A program made the position numbers and the translations under genes. A DNA stretch of 64,000 bases from an uncultured Actinomycetota bacterium (GTDB lineage Bacteria; Actinomycetota; Actinomycetes; JACCUZ01), in contig CAVOOW010000010.1 in the NCBI GenBank assembly GCA_963697675.1, positions 73,230 through 137,229 of the forward strand. Reading direction: 5' to 3'. Below are positions 1-41,633 of the stretch, one piece after another; the stretch's first letter is position 1, and each line of letters starts with the position of its first letter. Under the pieces are notes generated by a model. That model was not told the DNA's origin, did not search any database, and was given only the letters and a program-made list of their open reading frames with translations.

Positions 1-436
1 GACGTCGTGCGACGGCAACCGGACGACACCTGCGTACGGCGCCGGGTTGCCCGCCGCGAGGAGGTGCGCCAACCCGACGACATCCGCCCCGGGTCGGCAC
101 GCTGCGGACAGAACCCGGCAGACGTTGGCCTGGTAGACCTCCCCAGCGGCGATCTCGTCGCGCACGTGGGCGACCACCGACTCGTACGCCTCCTGGTCGA
201 GAGATGACGTCCACTCCCCCACCTGATCGGTGTGCCACTCGCCTGGTGGGAGCGGTGCGTCGCGCACGTCGCTGAACCGGGCTGCGGTCAGCTCTCCCTC
301 GAACGTCGCGACGACGGCCCACCAGCCGCCGGAGTCCAGCGCCGCCGGGTCGTGGCTGACCTCTTCGAGGCCGGTGGCGAGACGCCCACCAAACCACGCG
401 AGGGGCTCGTCGCTAGGCCAACCCACCGATTGCCGC
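1..436 (-). CDS. Chorismate-binding enzyme (aminodeoxychorismate/anthranilate synthase component I family), N-terminal part; runs off the window start
   Basis: The minus-strand frame is open from about 436 to position 1. It translates ...GGWWAVVATFEGE...AGEVYQANVCRVLSA..., which fits the GDxYQxNL chorismate-binding motif. A candidate GTG start overlaps the hutH stop. It is absent from the ORF table because no stop falls inside the window. Confidence 0.4.
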
Positions 437-1960
437 CTCGGCTGCAGCCACGATCTCTTCCAGCGCGGCGTCGACCGCTGCGATCTGCACGGCGACGTTG
501 CGGTCGGTGTCCATCGTCGGGACGTCGCGTCGGACCACTGCGTGGACCGCGGTCCCACCCGGGCTCGGCGACGCGACCGCGGCGCGGAAGTCCAGCGCCT
601 GGCAGGCGACCAGGATCTCCACGGACAGCACCGAACGCACGTTGGCGACGACCTCGCGCAGCTTGCGCATTGAGGTCCAGCCCATCGAGACGTGGTCCTC
701 CTGGTTGCCCGACGTCGGGATCGTGTCGACGCTCGCGGGATGGGCGAGCACCTTGTTCTCGCTGACCAGAGAGGCCGCGGTGTACTGCGCGATCATGTAT
801 CCCGAGTTGGTGCCGGGGTCCTTGGCGAGGAATGCCGGCAGGCTGCGACTGAAGGCCGGGTCGAGCATGCGGTCGGTGCGCCGTTCGGAGATGCTCGCGA
901 GCTCGGAGACCGCCATCGCGAGCATGTCGCCCGCGAAGGCGAGCGGCTCGCCGTGGAAGTTGCCCGTCGACATGACCTCGCCGTCCGGCACGATCACCGG
1001 GTTGTCGACGACCGAGCCGAGCTCGATGTCGATGACGCCGCGGGCATGCGCGAGCACGTCGCGCACGGCGCCGTGCACCTGGGGGGCGCAGCGCAGCGCG
1101 TAGGAGTCCTGCACCGCGTGGTCGCTCTCCCGGTGGCTGGCCACGAGCGGGGAGTTGGCCAGCAGCCGGCGCAGGTTGCTCGCGCTCGCGAGCTGGCCGG
1201 GATGCGGCCGGATGACCTGGACCCGCTCGTCGTAGGCGCGGTCGGTGCCCATCAGCGACTCGACGCTGAGCGCCGCAGCGATGTCCACGACCTTGACCAG
1301 CAGGTTGATCTCGTCGATCGCCAGCGCCAGCAGGACCTGCATCGGCTCGGTGCCGTTGATCAGGCTGAGCCCTTCCTTCGCGGCCAGGACAAGGGGCTCG
1401 AGCACCTCCTCTTTGAGCAGTTCCGCCGCTGGCCGTCCGGTGAGCTCCTCCCCCGCGCGGCGCAACCGGCCCTCGCCGACGAGCGGCTGGGCCAGGTGGG
1501 CGAGCTGGCAGAGGTCGCCGCTGGCGCCGACCGAGCCCTTGCCGGGGATCACCGGGAGCAGGTTGCGCTCGAGCATGTCGAGCAGCCGTTGTGGCAGGGC
1601 GGTGCGTACGCCGCTGTAGCCGACGGTGAGGGTTCGCGCGCGCAGCAGCAGCAGTCCGCGGACCACGTCGTCGGGCAGCGGCTCCCCCACCCCGGCGCTG
1701 TGCGAGCGGATCAGCGCGAGCTGCATGCGCTCGAGGTCGCCACGGCCGATGTGGGTGTCCGCGAGGGCGCCGAACCCGGTCGTGATGCCGTACATCACCT
1801 TGTTCTTCTCCACGGCGTCGCTGACCACCGCCCGGCTCGGCTGCATCCGGGCCTCGACGCCGGCCCCGAGCTCGGCCCGGGCCTCGCCCTTGGCCACGGC
1901 GACCAGGTCTTCGAGCGTCAGGGCTTCGCCGGTCACGGTCACAGTGCGCATGGCGGGCAA
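413..1960 (-). CDS. hutH: Histidine ammonia-lyase
   Basis: 515-aa ORF with the MIO-forming motif GSVGASGDLCQLAHLA and overall HAL/PAL-family similarity along its full length. Confidence 0.9.
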   Translation of the reverse strand: MPAMRTVTVTGEALTLEDLVAVAKGEARAELGAGVEARMQPSRAVVSDAVEKNKVMYGITTGFGALADTHIGRGDLERMQLALIRSHSAGVGEPLPDDVVRGLLLLRARTLTVGYSGVRTALPQRLLDMLERNLLPVIPGKGSVGASGDLCQLAHLAQPLVGEGRLRRAGEELTGRPAAELLKEEVLEPLVLAAKEGLSLINGTEPMQVLLALAIDEINLLVKVVDIAAALSVESLMGTDRAYDERVQVIRPHPGQLASASNLRRLLANSPLVASHRESDHAVQDSYALRCAPQVHGAVRDVLAHARGVIDIELGSVVDNPVIVPDGEVMSTGNFHGEPLAFAGDMLAMAVSELASISERRTDRMLDPAFSRSLPAFLAKDPGTNSGYMIAQYTAASLVSENKVLAHPASVDTIPTSGNQEDHVSMGWTSMRKLREVVANVRSVLSVEILVACQALDFRAAVASPSPGGTAVHAVVRRDVPTMDTDRNVAVQIAAVDAALEEIVAAAEAAIGGLA

Positions 1961-2160
1961 CCTAGCGCTCGGCGGCCCGGCCCGACACGCCCGGTCTCGC
2001 CCTCACCTGGTGTCACCTTGTTGTGCTTGGGCTTGGGGGCGATGCTCGGGTACGTCGACTGTGGCCTGCGTCACGGGCATGGACTGCCTTTGAAGCGGTC
2101 CGGATCGATGGGCTATGGTCTACTTCCGCACATCGGGGCAGTTCATTGCGCCGTTGTCGC

Positions 2161-2233
2161 GCGGACGTGGCTCAGTTGGTAGAGCATCACCTTGCCAAGG
2201 TGAGGGTCGCGGGTTCGAATCCCGTCGTCCGCT
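2161..2233 (+). tRNA. tRNA-Gly (anticodon GCC)
   Basis: Cloverleaf gcggacg...cgtccgc with anticodon loop cttGCCaag and T-arm ggttcgaatcc. Confidence 0.85.
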
Positions 2234-2266
2234 CGAAGAGGCCTGGGAGGTTGTTCGGCCTCTCTC

Positions 2267-2337
2267 GGTGGAGTGGCCGAGAGGCGAGGCAACGGCCTGC
2301 AAAGCCGTCCACACGGGTTCAAATCCCGTCTCCACCT
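2267..2337 (+). tRNA. tRNA-Cys (anticodon GCA)
   Basis: Acceptor ggtggag/ctccacc, anticodon stem acggc/gccgt with loop ctGCAaa, T-arm cgggttcaaatcccg. Confidence 0.8.
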
Positions 2338-2356
2338 CGATTACGCACGACAGCAT

Positions 2357-2434
2357 GGGCGATTGGCGCAGTCTGGCTAGCGCGCTTCCCTGACACGGAA
2401 GAGGTCACAGGTTCAAGTCCTGTATCGCCCACCA
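2357..2434 (+). tRNA. tRNA-Val (anticodon GAC), CCA encoded
   Basis: Acceptor gggcgat/atcgccc, anticodon stem cttcc/ggaag with loop ctGACac, T-arm acaggttcaagtcctgt, then acca. Confidence 0.85.
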
Positions 2435-2450
2435 CAAAAGTGCAGGTCAG

Positions 2451-2490
2451 AGGCCGGTTCCGAGATCATTGGAACCGGCTTCTTGATCGT
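2451..2490 (+). terminator. Stem-loop downstream of the tRNA cluster (putative terminator)
   Basis: Perfect inverted repeat gccggttcc-gagatcatt-ggaaccggc followed by ttcttg. Confidence 0.45.
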
Positions 2491-2691
2491 TTGCGGGCAC
2501 CTCGCGGGCAGAGTTTATGCGCGACCGTGGCCGCCCATGGGCGGACGGCACACGACATGGTCACTGTGCCGAGCACCGCGTTCGCCACCACCGTCTCGTT
2601 GACCCCGATCTCCTAGGACTCGGGCGCGGTGATGTGGCCACCGAGCCAACTGCCGGTAGCGCCCACGCCAACAACACGCTAGAAACGTGAC

Positions 2692-3215
2692 ATGCCGATG
2701 TCCACGCCGGTCGCCCAGGCAGTGCTTGTCACCGGTGTCTACGGCGCCGGCAAGAGCACCGTCGTGGCCGACATCGGCAAGGTGCTTGAGGACCACGGGG
2801 CACCCTATGGTTTGCTCGACGTCGACTGGCTGGGTTGGTTCAACGCGGCGAAGACCGGACGTCGCACCGGCGGGTGGTGCTGTCAAACGTACGGATGGTG
2901 TGCGAGGCGTACTTGGCCGCTGGTGTCAGACGACTGGCATTGGCGTGGTCGATCCGCGATCGTGAACAGTTGGACGAGTTGCGCCTCGCCGTACCTGTCC
3001 CGCTACGGGTCGTGCGGCTTTACGTCGACGCGGCCGTCGTTCAACGACGTCTGGCGACGGATCCCACCCAAGAACGCCGGGAGGATGACCTGCGAGTGGC
3101 GCACGACTGGCTGGCAGCCGGTCGCGGGCTAGGTCTTGAGGACCTGGTTCTTCCCGGTGACCAACCGGTCCGGGAGACAAGCGAAGCGATGTGTCGATGG
3201 CTATGTTGGATCTGA
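2692..3215 (+). pseudogene. P-loop NTPase (chloramphenicol-phosphotransferase-like / AAA kinase family), apparent frameshift near 2870
   Basis: Walker A GVYGAGKST...LLDVDWLGWF in frame 1. The family-typical C-terminus (VVLSNVRMVCEAYLAAGVRRLALAWSIRDREQLDELRLA...) continues in frame 3 as ORF 2835..3215. Confidence 0.5.
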
Positions 3216-3719
3216 GGCTCCGCTCTACGAGAGTGCCGACCTGGCTCGGGACGTGCTCCCGCTCCGAACCGCCGTAGACGGCGCGGGAAACTCCGCGGCT
3301 AACCACATTCAAGACGTTGCATAGGCGCTGTTGGCCGACCGGCAGCAAGCGAAACGTCCGCGCGCGGGAAACGTCATTCCTTGGCGCTACGCGGGGATCG
3401 GGGCGGCCACGACTGTGCTCGCCTTGTTGTTGATCTCCCTCATCTACTTCGCAATCGCCGGCAGGCGCCGGCTCGTGCCCTCCCCCCAGGAAGAGTTCGC
3501 GCTCACCCTCGGTGAGCACAGGCACCCCGAAGCAGAGGGGTACGGACACACCCGCGTCGACGAGGTAATGGGAGAGTCTTCCGACCGGGACAACTGACGC
3601 TTTCGATATCGACGACGGTGTGGCCCCGGCATTGTCGACGGCGAGTTGCAGGTTGGGCCTCAGGCGATTCCGACGTCTTCTCCGTGTCTGCGTGAAGCGC
3701 CCCAGGTTCTCTGCCGCTC

Positions 3720-4766
3720 CTATGCGGGGTGCGGCTCTCGGTTGATAGTCGCGTAGTGGGCTTGCTCGAACTCGTTCGGGGTCAGGTAGTCGAGGCTACT
3801 GTGCAGACTCCGGTTGTTGAACCAGTCGACCCAGCCGGCGGTGGCCCACTCGACGTCGGCGATGCCTCGGTAGGCGCCGGCGTGGAAGACGGTGGTGCGG
3901 ATGCACTCGGTCTTGTACAGGCCGATCATCGCTCTCCATGAGTGCGTTGTCGTAGGCGTCGCCGACGGAGCCGATCGACGGGCGGATGCTCCTCGAGGGC
4001 GAGGTGGTCGGTGAACCAGTGGACGTGTATTGCGTGCCGGCGTCCGAGTGACACGATGAGCTGCCCCGGCCGGACCGGGTGTCCTTCACGCTCGCGTTGC
4101 CATGTCGCCATCCGCAGCGGGGTCATGACCAGTGCGACGTCCGCTTGGAGGTCGGCGCAGTGCCAGGCGACGATCTTCTGCGCGAACACGTCCACGACGA
4201 ACGCGACGTAGACGAAGCCCGCCCACGTCCGGACGTAGGTGAAGTCCATGACCCACGTGCCGGTTCGGGGCGGCGGCGGTGAAGTCCCGGTCGAGCAGGT
4301 CCCCGGCACGTTTGCCGTCCTTGCCGGGGATGGTCGTGCGGATGCCCTTACCGCGCCGGACCCCGTCAAGTCCCAAGGCGCTGTCATGGCCCGTCGACCG
4401 GCCTCCGGGGAGGCGCGGCCGGCTGCGCCGGACCAGCGCGCGTCATCTTCCGTCGCCCGTAGAGACCTTCCGGGGTCATCCGGCGAACCCGCCAACCGCC
4501 TGGCGGTGTCCACGGTCCAGGCGAGGTCACGCACCACGTCCATCACCAGGGCGTCGGTCACGGTGCGGGCCGCGACCCGCTGGTCGAGCTACTTCCAGCC
4601 CGGTAGGTCCGTGCGGCGATCTGGCAGCCCTGCTCGCGCAGGACCCGACAGACCGACTCGACCGCACGACCAGCGCCGCGGCACTCGTCGACGAACGCGA
4701 CGATCAACGATTGCGGGCGGTCGGTGAAGTCGGCCCGGGGCGCGGTGCCGGCCTTGCGACCGGTCC
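3720..4766 (-). pseudogene. IS3-family transposase orfB (integrase core), multiple frameshifts
   Basis: Pieces in three frames: DRPQSLIVAFVDE...; RTTIPGKDGKRAGDLLDRDFTAAAPNR; VMDFTYVRTWAGFVYVAFVVDVF; HSDAGTQYTS; IGSVGDAYDNALMES; IGLYKTECI...WVDWFNNRSLHSSLDYLTPNEFE. Confidence 0.75.
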
Positions 4767-6923
4767 GTTTCCCCGGGCCGCCTCCCGAACCCGGCGTGCA
4801 CCTTTCCACGCACCGGGCTCTCCACAAGTCCCGTCTGGCGCGTGTGGTCGTCCTCATCCGGTGATCGGCCACGGCGACGGGAATGACCGATCCCCGGTAT
4901 CGGTAGCGGGTCGTGCTCGACCTTCTGCCGGGTTGAACAGTTCCCGTTCCTCGCTGGCCGGCCACCATCCGCCGCCGCAGTAGCGGCGGCGGAGCTCCTT
5001 CCAGGTGGCCGGCGGTGCTTGCGCCGCAGCCATCGCCAGACCGTCTGCCACACGTAGTGGCTGCAGGTAGCCGAAGGTCGCCGACGACACCCCGGGCCGG
5101 AAGTAGGCGCACCAGCCCCGCAGCACCGGGTTGAGCTGCGGAGCAGGACATCCAGCGGCTGGTTCACCCCGACCTGTCGGCACAGCGTCTTCACCTTGGC
5201 CATCACGGCCCGCAGGGCCTTCTTGGCCGGATAGGTGTAGACGTAGGACCGGCTGGTGCCCCGCTTGCGGTGACGCTGGATGCGCCACCCGAGGAAGTCG
5301 AGGCCCTCGTCGATGTGGGTGATCAGGGTCTTCTCCGGCGACAGGCGCAGGCCCATCGTGGACAAGCACCCCGGCGATCTCCTCTCGCAGCGCTTCGGCG
5401 TCGGCCCTGGTGCCCGCGACCACCAGGCACCAGTCGTCCGCGTACCGGACCAGCCGGTAGTTGGGCAGACCGTGACGGCGCCGTTTCGCCCGTTCCACCG
5501 TCGTGCTGCCGTGGTCCTCCCGGCGGCCCGGCGATGTGCTCGTCCAGGACCGAGAGGGCCACGTTGCTCAGCAGCGGCGACAGGATCGACCCCTGCGGGG
5601 TTCCGGTGGTGGTGTCCCGCAGCGTCGGTCCTCACTGAGGATGCCCGCCTTCAGGAACGCCTTCACCAAGGCCAGGACGCGTTTGTCCCCGACTCGATCC
5701 CGCACCCGGTCCATCAGGGCCGGGTGCGAGATCTCGTCGAAGCAGGCCTTGATGTCGCCCTCCACGATCCACTCATAGAGCGTGGCGATGTCGAGATAGC
5801 GCACCTCGGCCACCGCGTCATGAGCCCGGCGCTTCGGGCGGAACCCGTAGGAACACGGGAGGAAATCCGCCTCGAAGATCGGCTCCAACACCAGCTTCAG
5901 GGACGCCTGGACCACCCGGTCGGTGATCGTCGGCGATCCCCAGACGACGCAGCTTGCCGCCCGCCTTGGGGATCATCCGCTCCCGCACCGGCAGCGGGCG
6001 GAAGCTGCGGTCCTTCAACGCGACCGCAGCCCGTCGAGGAACACCTCGACCCCGCACCGGCCTCCACGATGGACGCGCCGTGCGCCGTCCACCCCGGCCG
6101 TGCGCGCACCCTTGTTGCCCCGCACCCGATCCCACGCCACCAGCAGGAACGCCGGGATCGGCGACGAGGTTGAACAGATCGTCGAACCTGCGATGAGGAT
6201 CATCACGGGCCCAACGGTGCAGCTTGGTCTGGATCTCCAGTACCCGGCGCTCCGCCCGAATCAGCAGCCGAGCTCCGAGCTCGTCGGTATTCACCGGCGA
6301 CACCTCCTGGCATTCCAGCATCCTCACTGCCGACTTGCTGGCCCCCTTCGCCCTGTGCCCGGCTCTCCCGGCCCCGCGGCGGGTCGTCGCTCGGACTACT
6401 ACGAGGCCTCCGCCCCACCCCACGGCCATCAGCCGGCAACGGACCTGCCCACCCGACCGGACTGGCTGCCCGGCACGGACGGGCGACCGCGGGGCGGTTC
6501 CCACGTTCACCACGCAATCGATCGATCAGGGAGGCGCCCAGCTCTACCCCGGCAGCATCGCCACGCCTACGCCGCAGGCCTTCACCGTGGCCTCCCCACC
6601 GACGGAGCTACACGGCTTCGGAGTTGACCCCCACCGACATCCGGCGTGGCCACGCACTGCACACCGGCCCATATCCACCAGATTTGAGCCGGCGCCGCGC
6701 TTACGGGGCTTCAACCACTGGTTCACTCTCGTACACCTTCTGATCTCGCTCGCCGGACCCGCACCGTCTGGCAGTACCAGCACGTCCCGGCTTTGTCAGG
6801 GCTGCTTCCCGCCCTCCCCGGCGTTCCCCGGGTCAGGCTGCCCCCAGCTTCACCAGGCCGCTGCGACGACCCGGCGGGGAGGTCTCTCACCTCCCTCGAT
6901 CACCACGGCGCCTCGTGGCGCAC
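4767..6923 (-). mobile_element. Group II intron (bacterial class) inserted in IS3 orfA
   Basis: 5' end GTGCGcc at 6923 on the minus strand. 3' end is ...gggaaAC at 4767. Domain V is GAGCCCGGTGCGTGG-AAAG-GTGCACGCCGGGTTC, about 50 nt from the 3' end. Joining the exons restores the IS3 orfA frame (...FFAGEL|DRSQ...). Confidence 0.75.
4800..6400 (-). pseudogene. Group II intron reverse transcriptase/maturase, frameshifted
   Basis: RT motifs FLPCSYGFRPKRRAHDAV, IVEGDIKACFDEI, LVRYADDWCLV, MGLRLSPEKTLITHIDEGLDFLGWRI. Maturase X motifs NPVLRGWCAYFRPG, ELRRRYCGGGWWP, TRYRYRG. These are spread over at least four reading frames. Confidence 0.75.
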
Positions 6924-7249
6924 AGCTCCCCCGCGAAGAAAATCGAAGCCCGGAGAATCTCGTTGTCCTCCTCGAGCCGCCGGACCTTCGCCTTCAGCTC
7001 CCGGATCTGGTCCAGCTCCTCCGTCGTGGCTCCCTGACGCTGGCCGCTGTCGACCTGCGCTTGCAAGAACCAGCGACGCACCGACTCCTGCTCAACGTGG
7101 TTGCGCTTCGCGACCGCCTCGGCCGCAGCTGTCGGCGTCGCGTACTCCGAGACGTGCTGCAGCATCTGCTGGACGCAACGCTCCTTCACCTTCGGATCGA
7201 TCTTCTTCGGCACAGGGCCATCCTCCTGGAACTCAGAAGGAGACGGCAT
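6924..7249 (-). CDS. IS3-family transposase orfA (HTH), 5' exon; interrupted by the intron
   Basis: MPSPSEFQEDGPVPKKIDPKVKERCVQQMLQHVSEYATPTAAAEAVAKRNHVEQESVRRWFLQAQVDSG...LEEDNEILRASIFFAGEL, with ATG at 7247-7249. Confidence 0.7.
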
Positions 7250-7272
7250 CAAACCGAGGCGCTTCACAGAAG

Positions 7273-7441
7273 TGGTGGGCCCCGTGGGACTCGAATCCAC
7301 AACCTACGGATTAAAGAGGAATCGGCCTGGTCAATCCCAGGTCAGAGTGTCCGGTGCTCTTCACCTGCGCGGTCGACACTGGACGATCTCTCGTCGGTGC
7401 CGGCTGGCTTTGGAAGCATTGCGGGACTGAGTGCGGAAAGG
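7273..7441 (+). repeat. tRNA-Lys 3'-half repeat, copy A (tRNA part on minus strand, plus conserved arm)
   Basis: tggtgggccccgtgggactcgaatccacaacctacggattaaag matches the revcomp of the tRNA-Lys T-arm, acceptor and CCA. It is followed by aggaatcgg...cccaggtcaga...cacctgcg...ctctcgtcggtgccggctggctttggaagcattgcgggactgagtgcgg. It directly abuts the IS3 end. Confidence 0.7.
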
Positions 7442-8445
7442 CGAACCTGGCCCTGAGGTCCAGACGCTCGCTGAGGCAAGCAGTGGGTGGTCCTCAAAGT
7501 CCTGAGGCGAGCTCGACCTCGCTCAAGCGCACCGTACGGCTGCGCCGCCGGCCCGCGTGGCCGATGCTCACCCGGCGCGGCTGCACGTGCTACTGCAGGC
7601 CGGTCTATCGATCGTCTGCAGGCTCGATCTGCCGTTGGTGCCGGGAGGTCAGAGGATGGCGCCGCGCGGAGCCACTCAACGGCGGCGACGCCCCGGCCGT
7701 ACAGCACCAGCATCGATCACCGTGGCTGGTACGGAGTGCGCCCGAGTGCTCGGCAAGCGTTGACTGGCATGCTCGATGACCTGCGCGGGCTCGGCGTATC
7801 CGGGTCATCGTACGTAACGTCTATGATATCGCCGCCATCAAATGCACACGCAGCACGATCTCTCCCATGTCCAGTCCCCTAGGCGCCTAGGCAAGAAGCG
7901 GCATTGGAACGCTGGCGGCCGTTGGCCACCGAGCCGCCAGTTCGATGCATCGACTGGCGAGCCCGGAGGTAGCTGCGTCGTTGTCCTGGAGGTCTCATCT
8001 CAGCGTCCCCCGGGTCCACTTCACCAGCATCTGTGTCGTCACAAGCTGTCGGGCTGGAGTCGCAGTACGGCGCACCTTCGACAGGCGGGAACCCCCTCGT
8101 TTGACACAGAAAGGCTATCAGCCGAAATCTTTGGCCGGGCCGGTAGTGACAGGTTCTGTTTGGCGGCGCCATTCGTTTGGATCACGCACCAGGTCAGTTG
8201 CCCGCCCCTCCGCCGTGCCGGAGACAACGTGTCAGACAACCAGACCTAGGCCTACGCCCAGCCCCGCCGGCGGGGTTCGTCGACCCACGCGCTGGGGCGT
8301 GAAGGACAACGTCGCCGACCGGTTCGCGAACGCGGACGTTGTCGCCGGACCGGGGTCTCGTGCACCGCGTCGACTTCACGTTCCACCACGTCGGCTCGCC
8401 GTCAGATTTCGTCAGCGCGTTCCGCAATTACTACGGACCTGCTGG

Positions 8446-8865
8446 CTACACCGGGGCGGTGATCGTCGCCTCGGCGACCAGGATGCTCACGTCCGGGGGC
8501 TGCTCGAGAGTGCTGTGGACTGTGCAGGCTCGGGCCACCGCGAGTAGGGCGGGGAGCCGCTCTGGTGGCAACGCCGGTGGGGGAGTGATACGGAGTGTGA
8601 TGCTGGCCACTCGGGCCGGGCGGTCCTGCGACATCTGCCAGCTGGCGTCCACGCGCAGCCCGTCGCGGCAGATGTGGTGGCGGGCCAGGAAGCCACCGGC
8701 GTAGTGCGCCACGCAGGAGGCGAGGCTGGCCACGAACAACTCGACGGGGGTGGGTCCGAGGTCGGTGCCGCCCGTGTCGGCCGGTTGATCGACGATCAGT
8801 TCGTGTCCGCGCACTCGTACGGCGTACCGGTCACCTCCCCGTGCCTTCACAACCATGGCAGCCAT
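8446..8865 (-). CDS. OsmC/Ohr-family peroxiredoxin-like protein
   Basis: GGTDLGPTPVELFVASLASCVA...ITLRI...ACTVHSTL. Confidence 0.75.
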   Translation of the reverse strand: MAAMVVKARGGDRYAVRVRGHELIVDQPADTGGTDLGPTPVELFVASLASCVAHYAGGFLARHHICRDGLRVDASWQMSQDRPARVASITLRITPPPALPPERLPALLAVARACTVHSTLEQPPDVSILVAEATITAPV

Positions 8866-8902
8866 CTCCGCCGTCCTCTCCTGCTTGCGTTCAGCGTCGC
8901 CG

Positions 8903-9412
8903 TCAGATGAACAGGATTTGGGCGCCGTCGGTTTTCTCGATGAAGTCGGCGGCGCTGATGATCGCTTCGACGCCGCCGTAGAGGTCGTTCATGGTCAGGT
9001 GGTTCATGTCGGCGGACATCCGGCAGGCCCACAGGTGCCCGCCGGAGTCGACGATCTGCTCGAGGAACTCCGGGACCTCGGGGACGCCGAGCTCGGCGAT
9101 GGACTTCTTCATCTTCTTGGTGGCGATCGAGGTCATCCACGGCAGGCCGCCCAGGCCTTGCGGCATGTGGGTGGCGGTGTTGCCGAGCATGGTGAACTTC
9201 AGGTCGTCCATGGTCTTCTTGTTGATCAGCTCGAAGCCCCAGAAGGTGAAGAACAGGTGGGTCTCGATGCCTTCACCGAGGGCGGCGTTCGCCAGGATCA
9301 GCCCGGGGTAGGCCATGTCCAGGTTGCCTTTGGAGCAGATGATCGCGAGCTTGCGATCGGTGCGGGCCTCGTCGAACGAGGGGACGAGGGGGGTTGTCTG
9401 GGTGGTGGTCAT
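8903..9412 (-). CDS. DsrE/DsrF-like family sulfur-relay protein
   Basis: Internal start MTTTQTTP (cat at 9410-9412). KLAIICSKGNLDMAYPGLILANAALGEGIETHLFFTFWG matches COG2210 / DsrE-like. Confidence 0.7.
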   Translation of the reverse strand: MTTTQTTPLVPSFDEARTDRKLAIICSKGNLDMAYPGLILANAALGEGIETHLFFTFWGFELINKKTMDDLKFTMLGNTATHMPQGLGGLPWMTSIATKKMKKSIAELGVPEVPEFLEQIVDSGGHLWACRMSADMNHLTMNDLYGGVEAIISAADFIEKTDGAQILFI

Positions 9413-12477: not shown

Positions 12478-12724
12478 TGCGGACTTTTGCGGACCGGCGT
12501 CACCTACGACGATCCTCAACCTCAAAGCGCAACGCGCTGACCTGCGGAAACGTGGTGGGCCCCGTGGGACTCGAACCACAACCTACGGATTAAAAGAGGA
12601 TTCTGGCCATCAGCAACGTCCCAGGTCAGACCGTCCCAGTGCCTGTCACCTGCGTAGAGGACACCGGATGACTCTCGTCGGTTCCGGCTGGTTTCGGAAG
12701 CATTGCGGACTCAGTGCGGACCAG
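12478..12724 (+). repeat. tRNA-Lys 3'-half repeat, copy B (native-type downstream flank + tRNA 3' half + conserved arm)
   Basis: atgcggacttttgcggaccg...ctcaaagcgcaacgcgctgacctgcggaaacg | tggtgggccccgtgggactcgaaccacaacctacggattaaaag | aggattctggcc...cccaggtcaga...cacctgcg...ctctcgtcggttccggctggtttcggaagcattgcggactcagtgcggaccag. Confidence 0.75.
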
Positions 12725-15054: not shown

Positions 15055-16721
15055 CTACCGGGTCAGCAGGACGTAGCCGACCACGCAGGTTGCGGCGAGC
15101 ACGGCCCCGATGAGCGGGAGCCCGAACTTGGCGAACGTGGCCGTGCTGTAGCCACCGGGGCGCATCACCATCAGGTTCGACTGGTGGCTGAACGGGTTGA
15201 TGAACGTGAACGAGATGCAGGTGGCGACGACGGCGAGAAGGATGACGGGGCTGACGTGCATCTCGGCGGCGATGCCGATGGCGACGGGCGTGAGGATGGA
15301 CGCCGCAGCCGAGTTGGTCACCAGGTTGGTCATCAGCGTGGTGGTCAGCGCCAGCACGATGACGACCAGCAGGACATTGCCCGCCGCCAGGTAACTGATC
15401 CCTCGGGCGATTCGCGCCGCCAGCCCGCTGGTCACCACGACCGCGCCCAAGCCGACCGATCCGGCCAGGATGAACAGCACGTTCCAGTCGAGGGCGCGTG
15501 CCGCGGATCTGGGCGTGAGCACTCCGGTGAGCACCATCAGGATCGCCCCGCTGAACGACACGAGTTCCACGGGGGCGAGCCCGAACGACGCAGCGACCAC
15601 CACGGCCGCCAGCACCGAGAGTGCGATCCAGGTCTTGCCCGGCTGCGGCGTCCGGCCGGCGACGTCCTGCCAGAGCGCCACGGACTCGCTGTCCCGGAGC
15701 ATCTCCGCACTGGTCCCGGTCACGAAGCAGGTCGCGCCCGGAGTCGCCGGCGTCTCGCTCAGGGACTGCGTCGTCTGTGCGGCGATGACGCGGAGGCCCG
15801 CCGTCGTCGTCGAGCTCCTTGAGGCTCCCGTGGACGCTGGTGCGCACGGAGACCTCATAGAGCCGACGCGGGGAGAGCCCGAAGTGCGGGCTGCCCCACA
15901 GCGCGGTGACGCCGGCCTCGGTGGCCGCGAACACCAGAACGTCGTCGGCCTCGATGATCTCGGTGGCGGCGAGCGTTTCGCCGGACCGTCGGATGGCCTG
16001 CGAGCTCGAAGACCTGGGTTCGAGCCATCCCAGCTCCGCTGCCACGCCGTCCGCGAGCCAGCGCCCGCCCGGAGACCGGGATCTCGACCCGCCAGTCCAT
16101 CGGGACGGCGACGGGTGCGCCAGCCGATCCCCGGAGGATCAGCGGTGCGGTGATGTAGATGACCAGCGCTCCGACCAGGGCGACCGGAAGCGCGACCACG
16201 GCGAACGACAGCATCGACGACGTGGACGCCGGCGGTGCCGGCGATGCCGGCGATGAGCAGGTTCGAGCTCGTGCCGATGAGAGTGATCGAGCCGGCCAGC
16301 GTCGTCACGTGGGCGATCGGCAGCAGGACCTCGCGGGCCGGGACCTCGCGGGTCTGCTCGAGCTCCTTCGACGCCGGGATCAGCATGGCGACGATCGGCG
16401 TGGTGTTCATCAGGCCCGAGGCGACGCCGACGGGGACGATGAGCCGCCGCAGTGACTGGCGCGCCGTCGTCACCGTGGACAGCAGCCGCCACGTGACCCG
16501 CGTGACGATCCCGGTCAGACGATGCCCTTCGCGATCACGAGCATCGCGGCCACCGTGATCACGCCGCCGTTGCTCAGGCCGGCGAAGAGGTCCCTGGTCG
16601 GAGTGACCCTGGTCAGCCCGGCGACGGCCAGCCCGGTAGCCAGCGCGAGGACCGGCGGGACCTTGCCCGACGTCATCGCCAGCAGCGTCGCGATGACGAT
16701 GACAGCGGCGAGGTACATCAT
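15055..16721 (-). pseudogene. SLC13/DASS-family permease with central TrkA-C (RCK_C) domains; at least three frame changes
   Basis: N-terminus MMYLAAVIVIATLLAMTSGKVPPVLALATGLAVAGL.. (frame of 16515..16883). Then LIVPVGVASGLMNTTPIVAMLIPASKEL... TrkA-C GETLAATEIIEADDVLVFAATEAGVTALWG sits in a third frame. The C-terminal permease half is intact. Confidence 0.5.
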
Positions 16722-16885
16722 CGGTCCCGGGCCCAGGTCGGCGTCACCGAAACAACGTAGACCTCTGCGTTCTCCGGCACGACGGGCATCGTCGCGACTC
16801 GGGGGCCTGGAACGCTCGGCACCGGCAGGGGTGGTCCGGTGGTCGAGATACGTCGAGTTGGGCCCGGCAATGTCCCTCGCCAAGA

Positions 16886-17004
16886 TGCGGACTCTTGCGG
16901 ACTGTGGTCGCCACGACGAAGTTCAATCTCACAGCGCAACACGCTGACCTGGCAAAACGTGGTGGGCCCCGTGGGACTCGAACCCACAACCTACGGATTA
17001 AAAG
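16886..17004 (+). repeat. tRNA-Lys 3'-half repeat, copy C (flank + tRNA 3' half, truncated by IS110)
   Basis: agatgcggactcttgcggactg...acgacgaagttcaatctcacagcgcaacacgctgacctggcaaaacg | tggtgggccccgtgggactcgaacccacaacctacggattaaaagtccg, then the IS110 leader. Confidence 0.75.
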
Positions 17005-18600
17005 TCCGACCGAGGCCGTGCCGGACGGTGACGACTGATGCTCGATGCGACCGTTTGTGCAGGTCAGCGACCTAGAGCCCTTCGGGCTCGCCGTGGTTCG
17101 CGAAGATTCTCCGTGGCGGCGCGCGCCTCTTCTTGTCGCGGCTGTGGTTGGCGAGGACGCTGGGTTGGTCCGTTCCGGTAGGACACCGATTGCCCTTGTA
17201 GTGCCTGTGAGCGTGTAGGTCAGCATGGTGGTGGAGGGCTGCCACGGGAACCGTGGATTGTTGCCTTGAGCACGAGCGTCAGCCTTCAGGATTTCCTTGC
17301 CTTCCCCGGGACGGGCATCGCCATCGTCCGCGGGTTGAGGAGGAGGAACAGCCGATGGATCTGATGCACCCGCGGTGTGCGGGACTGGATGTGTCCAAGC
17401 GCGACGCGAAAGTCTGTGTGCGGGTGGCCAGTGGCGGGCGGTCGGCTGCTCGTTCCACGGTGACGACCTGGGGGGCGGTGACCAACCAGGTGCTGGCGTT
17501 GCGGGAACACCTGATCGGCGAGGCGGTCACGTTGGTGGTGATGGAGGCCACCGGGGACTACTGGAAGCCGTTCTACTACCTGCTCGAAGACTGTCCGTTC
17601 GAGGTGATGCTGGTCAACGCCCGGCATGTGAAGAACCTGCCGGGCCGCAAGACCGACGTCTCCGATGCGGCGTGGCTGGCTCAGCTCGGGGCGCACGGGC
17701 TGGTGCGTGGCTCGTTCGTGCCGCCCGCACCGATCCGGGCGCTGCGGGATCTGACCCGGACCCGGACCACGATGGTGCGCGAGCGCGCCAAGGAGATCCA
17801 GCGGTTGGAGAAGTTGCTGGAGGACACCGGGATCAAGTTGTCCTCGGTGGCCACCGACATCAGCGGGGTGTCCGGGCGGGCGATGCTGGAGGCGCTGGTC
17901 AGCGGCCAACGCGACCCGGCCGTACTTGCGGAGCTGGCGAAACGCCGGCTGCGCACGAAGATCCCGGAACTGACCGAGGCCCTGACGGGACGGTTCACCG
18001 ACCACCATGCGTTCCTGACCCGCCTGCATCTGGATCTGATCGACCAGCACACCCATGCCGTTGAGGAGCTCACCGCCCGGATGGAGGTGGTGATCGAGCC
18101 CTTTCGTGGCGCCCGGGACCTGATCACCACGATCCCCGGGATCAGCGTCCTGGTCGCGGATGTGATCATCGCCGAGACCGGCGCCGACATGGCCCGGTTC
18201 CCCACCGCGGGGCATCTCGCGTCCTGGGCCGGGACGTGTCCGGGAAGCAACGAGTCCGCCGGTCGGGTCAAGTCGACCAAGACCCGACCCGGCAACCCCT
18301 ACCTCAAAGGTGCGCTCGGGATCGCGGCGATGTCCGCGGCTCGCAGCCAGACACCTACCTGGCCGCGAAGTACCGGCGCATCGCGTCCCGGCGCGGACCG
18401 ATCAAGGCCGTCGTCGCCGTCGAGCACGCGATTCTGATCGCGATCTGGAACATGGTCACCAACGGCGTCTTATACGCCGACCTCGGTGGCGACTACTACA
18501 CCAAGCTCAACCCAGACAAGACGAAGCAACGCGCCCTGAACCAGCTCAGACAGATGGGCTACGAGGTCACCCTCAACCCGCTACCAATCGCGCGGTGAAG
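17005..18600 (+). mobile_element. IS110-family insertion sequence (350-nt 5' leader + recombinase gene)
   Basis: IS110-type DEDD transposase preceded by a long non-coding leader. No terminal inverted repeats, as is typical for the family. Boundaries are approximate. Confidence 0.65.
17355..18598 (+). pseudogene. IS110-family transposase, single frameshift near 18350
   Basis: MDLMHPRCAGLDVSKRDAKVCV...VVMEATGDYWKPFYYLLED...MLVNARHVKNLPGRKTDVSDAAWLAQL. The C-terminus DTYLAAKYRRIASRRGPIKAVVAVEHAILIAIWNMV is in a second frame (ORF 18236..18598). Confidence 0.75.
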
Positions 18601-19030
18601 GGAATCTTCGCGTCAGGAGGCAACTCGCAGGGTGGGCGGTGTCGGGCTCTATCGGACGATGTTGTCAACGCCGCCTGAAACTTGACCCCCTAGCGCCTCC
18701 GCGTAGCGGGTGTGGTCGTTGTTTGTGCGGCTCGGTCCCCAGATGCCGCCGGCGGTGTTCCCGGGCCTTGGCGTGCCAAGGGGCTAGAACGGGAGGCTGC
18801 GTCCGGAGGGGCTGCGGAGGTCGAGGTCTTGGGATCTCGCTCTTCTGGTGGTGCGGCGGATCTGGATCCGTTTCATGGTTGGCACACCTTTGTTGGGGAC
18901 TGGCCCCCGGTTGATGGCCCGTTTCCCGACCGGCCGGGGTGGTTGGCCGGCCGGGAAGTCGAGTGGGGAGGGTTCAGCTGATCGAGCGGGCGGCGTCCTG
19001 GATCAGGGTGCTCGCGCCGCCGGGTGGGAT

Positions 19031-20134
19031 TCAGAGCACCTGGAGCTGCACCAGTCCGCGTTGCAGGCCGGAGCTGTTGACGGTGTCGGCGCCGGCCAGG
19101 GTCTCGATCCGCAGGGTGTCCTTTGCGTCGAGGTTGATCGGGGTCACCGTCGGGGTGAGCCCGGCCACGGTGATGTTGGCTCCCGAGCCGCTCACTGTGA
19201 TGTGGTCGACTCCTGCCGTGCCGCGCACGGTGACCTGGTCGGCGCTGTTGTTCGGGCCGGTGTTGTCCAGGGGGTCGGTGAAGTCGGGGGTGAAGTTGAC
19301 GACGTCGGTGCTGGACAGGTCGTTCACGGCGACCTGGTCGCCGCCGCCCTCGTCCAGGCCGCCGAAGCCGACCCAGGACACGTTCTGGATGTTGTCCGCG
19401 TCGACTCGACCGGCGGTGTGATCGGCGATGAGGTGCCCGGCGTTTGCCGACAGGGTGAGCGTCTCGCTGGCGAAGGAGCCGTCCATCTCCATGCTGTTCT
19501 GCCCGGTGCCTCCGTCGACGATGTCGCTTCGGGTTCCCCCGGCGATGAAGCCGTTGAGCTCGCTCTTGAACCGGTCGTTGCCGTCGCCGAGTGCGATGGT
19601 CTCCTGTCCGGTGCCGGCGCCTCCTCCGTCGACGAAGTCGTCGCCTGCTCCGGCCTGAATCGTGACCGGGCCGGGCGCGGCGGCCAAGAAGTCGTCGTTG
19701 CCGTCGGCGCCGATCATCGTGACCGGGAGGTCGCCGTCGCCGAGGTCGCCGATGTTACCGACGACGCCGAGGAAGTCGTTGCCCAGGCCTCCGTTTTCCG
19801 TGATCGGGAGGTCGCCGACGCCGGAGCCGTCCACCGTCATGCCGTCGTCGCCTCCACCGCCAAGCACTTTCACCCGCTGGACTTGGGGGCGCCGGAACTG
19901 GGCGTCGACCGTGCCGTCGAAGCCGAAGTCCACCACGACATTGGTGGCGTTGATGGTGAGGTGGATCACGTCTCGGGCGGCGGTCCCGTTGACGGTCAGG
20001 ACCCCGCTCGTCAGCGTCGCGGTCGGACCTGTTGCCGCGCCTGCCGGGGTGGCGGCGACCAGACCGCCGGCCGTGGTTGCCATCACCGCAACGATTCCGG
20101 CCAGTCGCCGGAGGCTCTGATTTGTGTGTTGCAT
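19031..20134 (-). CDS. Secreted calcium-binding protein with hemolysin-type (RTX-like GGxGxD) repeats
   Basis: Signal peptide MQHTNQSLRRLAGIVAVMATTAGGLVAATPAGAA. Repeated GGGGDDG / GGLGNDF / GADGNDDF / GAGDDFVDGGGAG / GDGNDRF. GAGGAG RBS. The 434-aa plus-strand ORF is its antisense shadow. Confidence 0.65.
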   Translation of the reverse strand: MQHTNQSLRRLAGIVAVMATTAGGLVAATPAGAATGPTATLTSGVLTVNGTAARDVIHLTINATNVVVDFGFDGTVDAQFRRPQVQRVKVLGGGGDDGMTVDGSGVGDLPITENGGLGNDFLGVVGNIGDLGDGDLPVTMIGADGNDDFLAAAPGPVTIQAGAGDDFVDGGGAGTGQETIALGDGNDRFKSELNGFIAGGTRSDIVDGGTGQNSMEMDGSFASETLTLSANAGHLIADHTAGRVDADNIQNVSWVGFGGLDEGGGDQVAVNDLSSTDVVNFTPDFTDPLDNTGPNNSADQVTVRGTAGVDHITVSGSGANITVAGLTPTVTPINLDAKDTLRIETLAGADTVNSSGLQRGLVQLQVL

Positions 20135-32297: not shown

Positions 32298-33014
32298 TCG
32301 AGCGACACCGTCTGATCGTTCGGCATCGTCCGACCGAGGATGCGAGCCGGGGCCAGCCGTTGGCCCCGGCCCCGTCTTCGCGGCAGGACTGGGGCAATCC
32401 CAAACCCCGAAGATGCCGGTCAGCCGCGGTCCTGGGGTGGTGGTCGTCGCGCGCCGGGCTGAGCGCTGACCACGAGTGCGTGCAGCCGGGAGTGAGATGA
32501 TCGCGGTGTGGTCGTGAAGGCCGGCACGCGTCCGGCGGCACGGCGCTCGCTCGCGCTCTCCCCGTGTGCGGGGGGCCACGCGGCGGGGCTGCGAGCGGCT
32601 CATCATGGCGAAGGGAGAGACCCGACATGGCGCCTCGCCGACGGCCGACACTACGGGCTTGATCGCGTCCCGGCCGTACGCCGCCTGCCGCAACACGCCG
32701 GGCACGCTGGTCTCCAGGGCGCACGGCGCTCGCCTCAAGGTCCATGACGCTGACACAGAGGCTGCGCGGAGGTCCTGCCCGGGGATCACAGCCCTGCCGC
32801 CGTCCGTCGACATCCAACCGGAGGTGTCCGCGTTCAGCCCCGCCCGCGGGCTCCTGCATCAGGCGAGCCACGAGCCTGGGTTCCAGGCCGCGACCACCAC
32901 TCGGCCCAGGACCGACAGCGCACGTGTCGTCATGCTCGACGAAGACAGCGTCGCGTGCAAAGCCGCAGCTTTCCGGCCCAAGGCATGTCGTCGGCTGAGC
33001 AGGCAGGATGCGGA

Positions 33015-33257
33015 CCGTTGCGGACCGGGCCCGCCAACGACGATCTTCAATCTCACATCGCAACGCGCTGAGCAGGGAAAACGCGGTGGGCCCCGTGGGA
33101 CTCGAACCCACAACCTACGGATTAAAAGAGGATTCTGGTCACTGGCAGCGTCCCAGGGCAGAGGCATCAAAGTGCCTCTCACCTGCGCAGATGCTGCTTG
33201 ACGTCTCTCGTCAGTTCTGGCTGGTTTCGGAAGCGTTGCGGACTCAGTGCGGACCAG
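33015..33257 (+). repeat. tRNA-Lys 3'-half repeat, copy E (flank + tRNA 3' half + conserved arm)
   Basis: gatgcggaccgttgcggaccg...cttcaatctcacatcgcaacgcgctgagcagggaaaacg | cggtgggccccgtgggactcgaacccacaacctacggattaaaag | aggattctggtc...cccagggcagag...cacctgcg...ctctcgtcagttctggctggtttcggaagcgttgcggactcagtgcggaccag. Confidence 0.75.
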
Positions 33258-41630: not shown

Positions 41631-41633
41631 GGG

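What the first reader, a model, noticed from the sequence alone, without database searches (positions are those of the whole stretch)
16960..18600. IS110-family element inserted exactly at the anticodon-loop junction of a tRNA-Lys half copy, with a 350-nt leader that is a bridge-RNA candidate
Copy C is cut 4 nt past the point where other copies switch to the arm (…ggattaaaag tccg | IS110). IS110-family recombinases are guided to specific targets by a structured non-coding RNA encoded in the non-coding end flanking the recombinase gene. Here that end is 17005-17354, directly abutting the target. The target is a repeated, conserved sequence, so the element would have many potential sites.
Basis: partly seen in the sequence, partly recalled or inferred. 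Interest (0 to 1): 0.55.

Follow-up and report, generated by a model that had tools for sequence, protein, structure and literature searches.

The report
IS110 element with bridge RNA, near tRNA
This is an ordinary, probably decaying IS110-family insertion sequence with a well-supported guide ("bridge") RNA upstream of its recombinase gene. It sits about 50-60 bases away from the tRNA-Lys half copy, in a short motif of its own, not at the tRNA break.

Summary
The tRNA-Lys half copy (16960-17008) and the IS110-family gene are real, but the element is not inserted at the tRNA break. Comparison with about 160 related loci puts the element at 17068-18616. It lies in the site TGCAGGTC-AG | (G)AGGCAA, so 49 non-IS bases (17009-17057) separate the tRNA break from the target half-site. 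The leader is 287 nt, not 350. Its core (17168-17316) folds into a structure conserved across the family: 95% of cells are paired, 18 pairs show compensatory changes, and slid controls give 34-47%. One internal loop carries two stretches that co-vary with the flanks of each relative. The 3' arm has the same sense as the left flank plus the AG core. The 5' arm is antisense to the core plus the right flank. A further stretch matches the element's own right end. This is a bridge RNA working as in IS621, but the recombination sites are inverted relative to the direction of transcription (the core reads AG, not CT) and there is an 11-nt subterminal inverted repeat. This copy has a 1-nt deletion in the recombinase gene and a broken stem pair, so it is probably inactive. 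The family's target motif does recur next to tRNA genes and tRNA-derived repeats, so the link with tRNA is real but indirect.

The parts
16960..17008 (-). tRNA-Lys(UUU) 3' half copy ('copy C'), from the CCA end to 4 nt beyond the anticodon loop
   Evidence: Exact 32-mer match. Alignment with the full gene and the other copies. Rfam tRNA model 27.1 bits, below the gathering score, as expected for a half.
17009..17057 (.). Spacer 'B': neither tRNA nor IS. It is the left flank of the insertion site.
   Evidence: No homology to any other IS copy except L083/L084, where 17011-17058 is also the left flank but is preceded by unrelated DNA. Single copy in the window.
17058..17067 (+). Left target half-site plus core (TGCAGGTC-AG), target-derived
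   Evidence: These bases vary between otherwise identical copies in one genome: CAGGTCAG, CAGCTCAG, CAGGCCAG, CAGGTCAA. They co-vary with the RNA 3' arm across the family. An uninterrupted TGCAGGTCAGAGGCC exists at 2441-2455.
17068..18616 (+). IS110-family element, 1549 bp, counting the right-hand AG core copy
   Evidence: blastn to 80 genome loci and junction alignments. 94% identical to L081 and 92% to L082 over its full length.
17075..17089 (+). Terminal hairpin of the left end (GAGCCC UUC GGGCUC)
   Evidence: Present with compensatory sequence changes in all clades of the left-end alignment.
17099..17109 (+). Left copy of the 11-nt subterminal inverted repeat (CGCGAAGATTC). Its partner GAATCTTCGCG is at 18602-18612.
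   Evidence: Conserved in all relatives, as GAAGATT or GAAAATT in the left end and AATCTTC or AATTTTC in the right end.
17168..17316 (+). Bridge-RNA core, closed by the outer stem GUCCGUUCCGG (17168-78) / CCGGGACGGGC (17306-16)
   Evidence: RNAalifold consensus. Pair counts on 14 and on 54 distinct sequences. Covariance model R1 hits here at 169.6 bits, the only hit in the window.
17184..17230 (+). Target-binding module. Closing stem CACCG/UGGUG. The 5' arm AUUGCCCUUG (17189-98) is antisense to core plus right flank. Apical hairpin 17199-17216. The 3' arm AGGUCAG+CA (17217-25) has the same sense as left flank + core + the first bases of the IS.
   Evidence: Column scans: same-sense match to the left flank peaks here at 6.95/8 against 4.1 or less elsewhere. 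Antisense match to CAG + right flank peaks at 6.04/8 against 5.2 or less. Cognate versus non-cognate pairings: 8.8 vs 5.7 of 11.
17233..17305 (+). Second module. Stem GGAGGGC/GCCUUCC, hairpin CCACGG-GAA-CCGUGG (17242-56), and donor guide GCGUCAG+CC (17276-84) with the same sense as the right end of the IS.
   Evidence: Same-sense match to the last 8 nt of the right end peaks here at 6.96/8 against 4.3 elsewhere. It co-varies in relatives: GCGCCAG, AUGUCAG, GAGUGAG, GAGAGAG, GUGACAG.
17355..18598 (+). Recombinase gene (414 aa if repaired), broken by a 1-nt deletion at about 18349/18350
   Evidence: ORFs 17253-18437 and 18236-18598 are in different frames. Alignment to L081/L082 shows GCAGCCA-GACACC against GCAGCCAGGACACC. 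Pfam and NCBIfam hits. Weak similarity to the IS621 transposase 8WT6.
18617..18661 (+). Right flank 'R' of the insertion site. GGCAA (18619-23) is complementary to UUGCC in the RNA 5' arm.
   Evidence: Homologous to the right flank of the sister copies L082 and L083/L084. Pairing read directly from the sequence.

Best explanation
An IS110-family insertion sequence occupies 17068-18616. It was inserted by RNA-guided recombination into the site 5'-TGCAGGTC-AG-(G)AGGCAA-3', which lies 49 nt to the right of a tRNA-Lys half copy. Its 287-nt left end encodes a bridge RNA with its core at 17168-17316. [quoted passage not shown] A second module carries GCGUCAG, which matches the element's own right end plus core (the donor). 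Read on the complementary strand, the core is CT and the order of the arms is exactly that of IS621: sense guide on the 5' side, antisense guide plus two handshake-like bases on the 3' side. The chemistry is therefore most likely the same, but the recombination sites are inverted relative to the direction in which the RNA and recombinase are transcribed. This copy is probably an old, inactive one. It has a frameshift in the recombinase gene and one broken pair in the apical hairpin, and its sister copy at the same flanks (L084) is also damaged. Shown here: the boundaries, the conserved structure, and the guide/flank co-variation. Inferred: transcription of the RNA, the pairing itself, and the recombination mechanism (by analogy with IS621 and ISEc21).
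For: Boundaries. The target-derived nature of 17058-17067 is shown by between-copy variation within one genome (L008-L015, L029) and by an uninterrupted TGCAGGTCAGAGGCC at 2441-2455. Structure: 38 pairs in 6 helices. On 54 distinct sequences, 95.3% of cells are paired against 87.3±0.4 in shuffles (0/500), 18 pairs change on both sides, and slid controls give 34-47%. The model finds the RNA just upstream of the gene in 68 of 76 close loci and gives 76 hits in the 82 distant loci. Guides: 14 distinct 3'-arm variants each match their own left junction, for example AAGACAG, TGGTCAG, AAATGAG, CATTCAG, GCAGTC. The 5' arm is antisense to the right flank, for example UUGCGUCUG against CAG/GAG|ACGCAA, 9 nt, in about ten independent sites. 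The donor guide co-varies with the right end. IS621 polarity was checked directly in an E. coli locus and against PMC11208160 and PMC11208158. Protein family.
Against: No expression data. The minimum free energy of the single sequence is no better than shuffles (z = 0.12), so support for the fold comes from covariation only. A second donor guide, antisense to the start of the left end, could not be identified: the invariant AUUGUUGCC does not co-vary. In this copy the right-hand pairing needs a one-base bulge and is only 5+4 nt. The handshake-like CA does not match the CG that starts this copy. The shared flanks B and R in L084 leave open that more than the minimal IS moved or was inherited as a block.
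Confidence: 0.85

Rival explanations
1. One reading: the IS inserted exactly at the anticodon-loop junction of the tRNA-Lys half copy, and the tRNA-derived repeat is its RNA-specified target.
For: Copy C ends 4 nt later than its siblings, and what follows is not the common arm. IS copies of this family are enriched near tRNA sequences.
Against: 49 nt of non-IS DNA lie between the tRNA break and the target half-site. The loop arms match 17058-17067 and 18614-18623, not the tRNA. The 5' half of the tRNA is absent on the far side of the IS. The closest relatives (L081, L082, L084) have no tRNA half at the left junction.
Confidence: 0.03
2. The unit that arrived next to the tRNA half is larger than the minimal IS: spacer B + IS + flank R (about 17011 to at least 18661). 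It could be the end of a genomic island, or an IS110 element that mobilised flanking DNA through a pseudo-end or half-matched site. In that case the tRNA break would be the junction of that larger unit.
For: WIN and L084 share B and R, but the DNA left of B is unrelated and diverges at the same nucleotide of B. Both upstream sequences contain GTCCG or GGTCG, a weak resemblance (5 of 8) to the left half-site. Recent preprints report half-match recombination and expanded IS110 elements (titles and abstracts listed; not read in full).
Against: L081 (97% aa identity) and L082 lack B. There is no AG core and no convincing guide match at the B boundary. The resemblance is within chance. The normal half-site TGCAGGTCAG sits between B and the IS, as in every other copy. 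R fades gradually rather than ending sharply in the window.
Confidence: 0.1
3. The leader is only a 5' UTR or promoter region, and the matches to the flanks are by-products of sequence duplication at insertion rather than RNA guides.
For: No transcript data. No exceptional folding energy. No Rfam family matches.
Against: The matching stretches lie 120-210 nt inside the element, in the arms of a loop held by covarying stems. One of them is antisense, not a copy. They change together with the flanks across 14 or more guide variants. The same logic is experimentally established for IS621 and ISEc21 (PMC11208160, PMC11187229).
Confidence: 0.02

Closest known systems
IS621 (IS110 family, Piv-like subgroup) and its bridge RNA
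   Same: DEDD/RuvC-like N-terminal domain plus a C-terminal domain with the conserved Ser. The non-coding RNA is upstream of the recombinase in the long left end. There is an internal loop with one sense and one antisense guide overlapping a 2-nt core, two extra bases after the antisense-type guide that match the other partner (handshake-like), a second region matching the element's own end, and no target duplication beyond the core.
   Different: The protein is only weakly similar (E = 6.6e-8 to 8WT6) and is 414 aa against 326 aa. On the RNA-sense strand the core is AG, not CT, and the order of the two guides in the loop is swapped, which means the sites are inverted relative to transcription. 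There is an 11-nt subterminal inverted repeat instead of 2-3 nt. Both modules are enclosed by a long outer stem. The R1 model does not hit the IS621 locus.
IS110 proper subgroup (IS110 of Streptomyces coelicolor and relatives; transposases of 395-455 aa, upstream non-coding region; described in PMC11187229)
   Same: Actinobacterial hosts (relatives named Lapillicoccus, Dermatophilaceae, Arthrobacter, Mycobacterium, Acidimicrobiales), protein length of 414 aa, and a long upstream non-coding region.
   Different: Membership of that subgroup was not tested by phylogeny here, because no IS110, IS116 or IS900 sequences were available. No bridge RNA from this subgroup has been studied experimentally in the papers read.
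IS1111-type elements and their seekRNA (ISEc11, IS4321/IS5075, the IS1111-attC group)
   Same: Subterminal inverted repeats of 7-17 bp. [quoted passage not shown] They target conserved sequences of other mobile elements.
   Different: In IS1111 types the RNA usually lies downstream of the gene and the transposase is 330-350 aa. Here the RNA is upstream and the protein is 414 aa. The left repeat lies 31 nt inside the end, not a few bases.

Membership tests
IS110 family (DEDD, RNA-guided recombinase) | N-terminal DEDD/RuvC-like domain and C-terminal Transposase_20 domain | tested here: met
   PF01548 E = 1.9e-27 and PF02371 E = 1.4e-19. NF033542 at 250.5 bits against a cut-off of 140. The alignment to IS621 8WT6 covers both domains and places the window protein's ESAG against the ESGSS stretch of IS621. 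That this stretch holds the catalytic Ser (S241 in PMC11208158) rests on my own reading, not on a printed residue number.
IS110 family (DEDD, RNA-guided recombinase) | Intact recombinase gene | tested here: not met
   1-nt deletion at about 18349 splits the ORF. It could be a sequencing error, which cannot be told from the window alone.
IS110 family (DEDD, RNA-guided recombinase) | No terminal inverted repeats and no target duplication other than a shared core dinucleotide at both junctions | tested here: met
   AG at both junctions in all clades, with a single AG in the uninterrupted motif at 2441-2455.
Bridge RNA / seekRNA | Conserved structured RNA in the long non-coding end | tested here: met
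   Covariation-supported helices. The model hits upstream of the gene in nearly all relatives.
Bridge RNA / seekRNA | Loop with two guides that co-vary with the left and right target halves on opposite strands | tested here: met
Bridge RNA / seekRNA | Second loop with two guides for the donor (the element's ends) | tested here: inconclusive
   One guide (GCGUCAG, matching the right end + core) is clear and co-varies. The partner for the start of the left end was not found.
Bridge RNA / seekRNA | The RNA is transcribed, binds the recombinase and is required for recombination | not testable with these tools
   Needs RNA-seq and biochemistry.
Rfam-curated RNA family | Match to a curated covariance model | tested here: not met
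   No family other than tRNA matched, at the gathering score or at E up to 10.
IS1111 group | Subterminal inverted repeats of 7-17 bp | tested here: met
   CGCGAAGATTC (17099-17109) and GAATCTTCGCG (18602-18612), conserved in relatives.
IS1111 group | Long non-coding region downstream of the gene; transposase of 330-350 aa | tested here: not met
   The right end is 18 nt, the left end is 287 nt, and the protein is 414 aa.
   59 nt lie between the last tRNA base (17008) and the first IS base (17068).

The most novel reading that the evidence does not exclude
This actinobacterial IS110 lineage may home to a short motif (consensus GCAGGTC-AG-AGSC, often preceded by CGTTTCC) that sits 5-9 nt downstream of tRNA genes and beside the tRNA-derived att repeats of genomic islands. 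That would make it an RNA-guided element using tRNA/att flanks as a safe harbour. It does so with a bridge RNA whose recombination sites are inverted relative to transcription, combining an upstream RNA (IS110-like) with a long subterminal repeat and reversed guide order (IS1111-like). The odd tRNA-half/B junction could then be a by-product of recombination at such sites.
Probability: 0.3. Interest if true: 0.55.

Novelty: new member of a known kind. Interest (0 to 1): 0.3.

Why it matters
It corrects the anatomy. The tRNA-Lys half copy is not the target, so this window offers no case of an IS110 element reading a tRNA anticodon junction. It does provide a clean, covariation-backed bridge RNA for the long-protein, actinobacterial branch of the IS110 family, with assigned target and donor guides. 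It also shows that the recombination-site polarity relative to the RNA gene is opposite to that of IS621, which matters for anyone predicting targets or reprogramming such elements. The enrichment of this lineage's sites next to tRNA genes and att repeats is a testable hint about how these elements choose harmless, repeated landing sites.

Tried and rejected
- Rfam, at the gathering score and at E up to 10: no bridge-RNA family, only the tRNA half.
- Single-sequence folding: the energy is not better than shuffles, so it was not used as evidence.
- Search for the missing 5' half of the tRNA to the right of the IS: only the real gene at 41680.
- Spacer B as a remnant of the tyrosine integrase that flanks the sister copy L082: alignment scores were below the shuffled controls. 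The only tblastn hit in the window is at 32905-33159.
- Search for an uninterrupted B|R site in viral contigs: one chance hit inside a coding region.
- Strict regular expression for the guide module: it missed most loci and was replaced by the covariance model.
- Scan of the window for further sites allowing G-U pairs: far too permissive to be informative.
- Search for a second donor guide antisense to the start of the left end: no column stands out, and AUUGUUGCC is invariant and does not co-vary.
- The islands between the tRNA-Lys copies were screened for an integrase: none among 20 ORFs, only metabolic genes, LuxR-type regulators and IS3-family fragments.
Full report
**What is at the coordinates.** The window is 68% G+C actinobacterial-type DNA. 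A full tRNA-Lys(UUU) gene lies at 41632-41707 on the minus strand. Partial copies of its 3' half lie at 7286, 16973, 23287 and 33097 (coordinates of the shared 32-mer), and one more at 12554-12596. In alignment, the copies at 7286, 23287 and 33097 leave the tRNA sequence after ...GGATTAAAAG and continue in a common arm. 'Copy C' (16960-17008) keeps four more tRNA bases (TCCG) and then continues in unrelated sequence. The ORF that follows has both IS110-family domains (PF01548 and PF02371) and hits NCBIfam NF033542 'IS110 family RNA-guided transposase' at 250 bits. It is only distantly similar to the solved IS621 transposase (E = 6.6e-8).

**Where the element begins and ends.** I collected 80 related loci from genomes, 80 from metagenomes and three from exact-protein look-ups. 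blastn of 16500-19500 against them shows homology starting at 17052-17060 and ending at 18616-18621 in every close relative. The junction alignments show flanks diverging immediately left of GCAGGTCAG... and right of ...GAATCTTCGCGTCAG.

In one metagenome-assembled genome there are nine otherwise near-identical copies (L008-L015, L029). In these, the bases corresponding to 17060-17067 differ between copies (CAGGTCAG, CAGCTCAG, CAGGCCAG, CAGGTCAA), so they come from the target, not from the element. Both junctions end in AG in every clade. An uninterrupted TGCAGGTCAGAGGCC with a single AG exists at 2441-2455 of the window. The element proper is therefore 17068-18616 (1549 bp, counting one core copy), inserted in TGCAGGTC-AG | GAGGCAAC.

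The last tRNA base (17008) and the first IS base (17068) are 59 nt apart. The 5' half of the tRNA does not reappear beyond the element. The statement 'inserted exactly at the anticodon-loop junction' is not correct, and the leader is 287 nt (17068-17354), not 350.

**The spacer.** Bases 17011-17058 are single-copy in the window. They do occur as the left flank of the sister copy L083/L084 (94% identical protein, a different metagenome), as does the first 45 nt of the right flank (to 18661). In L084, however, the DNA to the left of this spacer is unrelated and is not a tRNA half. A full tRNA-Lys gene lies about 700 nt to the right of that copy. L082 shares only the right flank, and its left flank is a tyrosine-integrase ORF that the IS interrupts. 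L081, the closest relative (97%), has different flanks on both sides.

I read this as follows. The insertion into the B|R site is old and was inherited with its surroundings, and the tRNA-half/B junction is a separate rearrangement or island boundary. It remains unexplained that two different junctions fall at the same nucleotide of B. I keep 'a larger unit moved' as a rival at 0.1.

**The RNA.** An alignment of the left ends of 14 relatives spanning 61-97% protein identity gives an RNAalifold consensus with these elements:
- an 11-bp outer stem (17168-78 / 17306-16);
- a first module closed by CACCG/UGGUG (17184-88 / 17226-30), with an internal loop and an apical hairpin (17199-17216);
- a second stem GGAGGGC/GCCUUCC (17233-39 / 17299-305);
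- the hairpin CCACGG-GAA-CCGUGG (17242-56).

Counting pairs on this alignment gives 94.7% paired cells against 88.0±0.8 for shuffles, and 11 pairs with changes on both sides. A covariance model built from it (R1) finds the RNA once in the window (17157-17336, 169.6 bits) and in 68 of 76 close loci. It also gives 76 hits in the 82 distant loci whose proteins are only 45-50% identical, almost all within about 200 nt upstream of the gene start. It does not hit an IS621 locus.

On the 54 distinct sequences of the model alignment, 95.3% of cells pair (shuffles 87.3±0.4, 0/500) and 18 pairs change on both sides. Sliding the partners by 1-3 columns drops pairing to 34-47%. The alignment is fitted to the model, which favours it somewhat, but the MAFFT-only alignment gave the same picture. 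The single-sequence folding energy is unremarkable (z = 0.12). Rfam has no matching family.

**The guides.** The 3' arm of the first loop (17217-25, AGGUCAG+CA, preceded by UGU) has the same sense as the left junction.
- Across the family there are 14 distinct versions of this arm. Each matches its own junction, for example AAGACAG, UGGUCAG, AAGUCAG, AAAUGAG, UGUUCAG, CAUUCAG, CGAGCAG+CU, CGAGCAG+UC, AGUUUAG.
- Mean identity is 8.8 of 11 for cognate pairs and 5.7 for non-cognate pairs.
- In a column scan the match peaks at this arm (6.95 of 8; next best 4.1).

The 5' arm (17189-98) is antisense to the core plus the right flank. Examples are UUGCGUCUG against CAG/GAG|ACGCAA in about ten independent sites of the Mycobacterium-like clade, GCUCUG against CAG|AGC, CCUCUG against CAG|AGG, and GUCUCUG against CAG|AGGC. 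The scan peaks here (6.04 of 8 against 5.2 or less). Cognate flanks pair better than non-cognate ones (2.6 vs 1.2 contiguous pairs beyond the core).

In the second module, GCGUCAG (17276-82) has the same sense as the last bases of the element plus the core and co-varies with them: GCGCCAG, AUGUCAG, GAGUGAG, GAGAGAG, GUGACAG. The scan gives 6.96 of 8 against 4.3. The two bases that follow tend to match the first bases of the right flank.

For this copy the predicted pairings are as follows:
- UGUAGGUCAG (17214-23) with the bottom strand of TGCAGGTCAG (17058-67), including one U·G.
- UUGCC (17190-94) with GGCAA (18619-23), and CUUG (17195-98) with CAGG (18614-17), leaving A18618 bulged.
- In the sister copies, UUGCCC pairs with GGGCAA.

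I could not find the second donor guide.

**Comparison with IS621.** I checked the polarity of IS621 directly. Its 177-nt bridge RNA sequence recalled from memory matched E. coli genomes at 100%. In a locus from strain 90-9280 the left junction is ATCAGGCCT|TGTATT... and the right junction is ...ACAGTATCT|ACGTG. In the RNA, the sense guide AUCGGGCCU precedes the antisense guide UGCGUAG, as described in PMC11208160.

In the present family the antisense guide comes first and the sense guide second, and the core reads AG. Read on the other strand, the core is CT. The 5' arm is then sense to 'left + CT', and the 3' arm is antisense to 'CT + right' and is followed by two bases that match the non-cognate partner. 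That is the position of the handshake guides in PMC11208158. The loop is therefore organised as in IS621, but the recombination sites are inverted relative to the direction of transcription.

Siddiquee et al. (PMC11187229) report that the order of the strand-matching stretches is reversed in IS1111-type seekRNAs compared with the IS110 type, that IS1111 types have subterminal inverted repeats, and that the branch containing IS110 itself has transposases of 395-455 aa with upstream non-coding regions. This element has the upstream RNA and the protein length of the IS110-proper branch, together with an 11-nt subterminal repeat (17099-17109 / 18602-18612) and the reversed order. I did not test its phylogenetic position. 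I cannot say whether this combination has been described before. Large-scale surveys (PMC11208160) predicted bridge RNAs in 86% of IS110-group elements and probably covered relatives.

**State of this copy.** Relative to L081 and L082, the recombinase gene lacks one base at about 18349 (GCAGCCA-GACACC), which separates the last 82 or so codons. The apical hairpin has a G where all relatives have the pairing C (17209). The element starts with CG where the RNA has CA. The sister copy L084 has a 42-nt inverted segment and a deletion in its left end and scores lower with the model (128.8 bits). Both look like decaying relics, unless the deletion is an assembly error.

**The tRNA link.** Although the tRNA half is not the target, the association is not accidental.
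- A strict T-arm motif occurs in 7 of 93 non-redundant 160-nt flanks of family members (14.5 kb), against 27 in 715 kb of all fetched DNA. About 0.55 are expected, giving a Poisson P of about 2e-6 by my own arithmetic.
- In L028 (tRNA-Met), L106 (tRNA-Ala) and L126 (a tRNA-Lys(CUU) 3' half), the left half-site begins 5-9 nt after the tRNA 3' end.
- In L004, L002 and L105, a tRNA-Leu or its fragment lies 14-23 nt beyond the right end.
- L029 resembles the window.
- In the window, CAGGTCAGAG with at most one mismatch occurs 17 times against 5.3 expected (largest of the 100 shuffles 11). It sits 8 nt after tRNA-Val (2443), 8 nt after the 3' end of three tRNA-Lys copies or remnants (12535, 16942, 40231, minus strand), and about 25 nt into the common arm of the others (7338, 12622, 23344; variant at 33154).

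The left half-site is therefore a recurrent feature of tRNA and att flanks. What it does there is unknown. None of these free sites also matches this copy's right-hand guide.

**Verdict.** This is a real IS110-family element with a well-supported bridge RNA. The copy is probably dead. It is a new member of a known kind, with an architectural twist (inverted site polarity, long subterminal repeat) and a tRNA-flank preference that deserve a note rather than a headline.

Noticed in passing
window 12554-12596 (minus strand) and about 40240-40300: A further tRNA-Lys 3' half copy with one indel was missed by the 3-mismatch search. There is also a remnant holding only the last ~9 tRNA bases plus the conserved downstream flank. 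The tRNA-Lys locus therefore carries at least five partial copies plus one remnant.
   Followed up: partly
window 2443, 7338, 12535(-), 12622, 16942(-), 23344, 33154, 40231(-): The motif CAGGTCAG(A/C)G is enriched (17 vs 5.3 expected). It lies at a fixed 8 nt after tRNA 3' ends and, in the opposite orientation, about 25 nt into the arms on the other side of the tRNA-derived repeat. Together these form an inverted pair around the att core. The arms also carry repeated GCGGAC motifs. It may be a recombinase or accessory-protein site.
   Followed up: partly
window 7300-41600: The segments between the tRNA-Lys copies carry OsmC, DsrE-like, flavin oxidoreductase and large LuxR/AAA_16 regulator genes. 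No tyrosine integrase was found among 20 ORFs screened. A weak integrase-like stretch lies at 32905-33159.
   Followed up: partly
window 40324-41386 (minus) and 6887-7300 (minus): IS3-family transposase pieces (rve/rve_3 and HTH domains) sit directly beside the full tRNA-Lys gene. An HTH_Tnp_1-like ORF abuts the copy at 7286.
   Followed up: no
window 15055-16883 (minus): A CitMHS-type transporter gene appears split into two ORFs (15055-16473 and 16515-16883), just left of copy C. It may be a pseudogene.
   Followed up: no
L165 1578-1660 (E. coli O114:H49 strain 90-9280, NZ_CP024240.1): This IS621 copy is preceded by a duplicate of the first 72 nt of its own left end. The duplicate stops exactly at the DNA encoding the left target guide (ATCGGGCCT|TGTATT...), as if IS621 had recombined at its own guide sequence, which mimics its target.
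   Followed up: no
L017, L018, L021-L024, L026 right flanks: In the Mycobacterium-like clade (about 62% identity) the element sits in the left arm of a REP-like palindrome: CGCGAGCAG|ACGCAAAAGCCCC...GGGGCTTTTGCGTCTGCTCGCG. This is the classic IS110-family habit of targeting repeated extragenic palindromes.
   Followed up: partly
L082 547-1347: The sister copy interrupts a tyrosine-integrase ORF near its 3' end (HDLRHGAATLALAGGRTLKLQVS|...). Its right flank is homologous to the right flank in the window.
   Followed up: partly
L002 about 1760-1775 and L105 right flank: About 60-70 nt beyond a truncated tRNA-Leu fragment lies an inverted copy of the half-site (GCTGACCTGCAG / CTCTGACCTGCGG). These could be further target sites or the end of another copy in the opposite orientation.
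   Followed up: no
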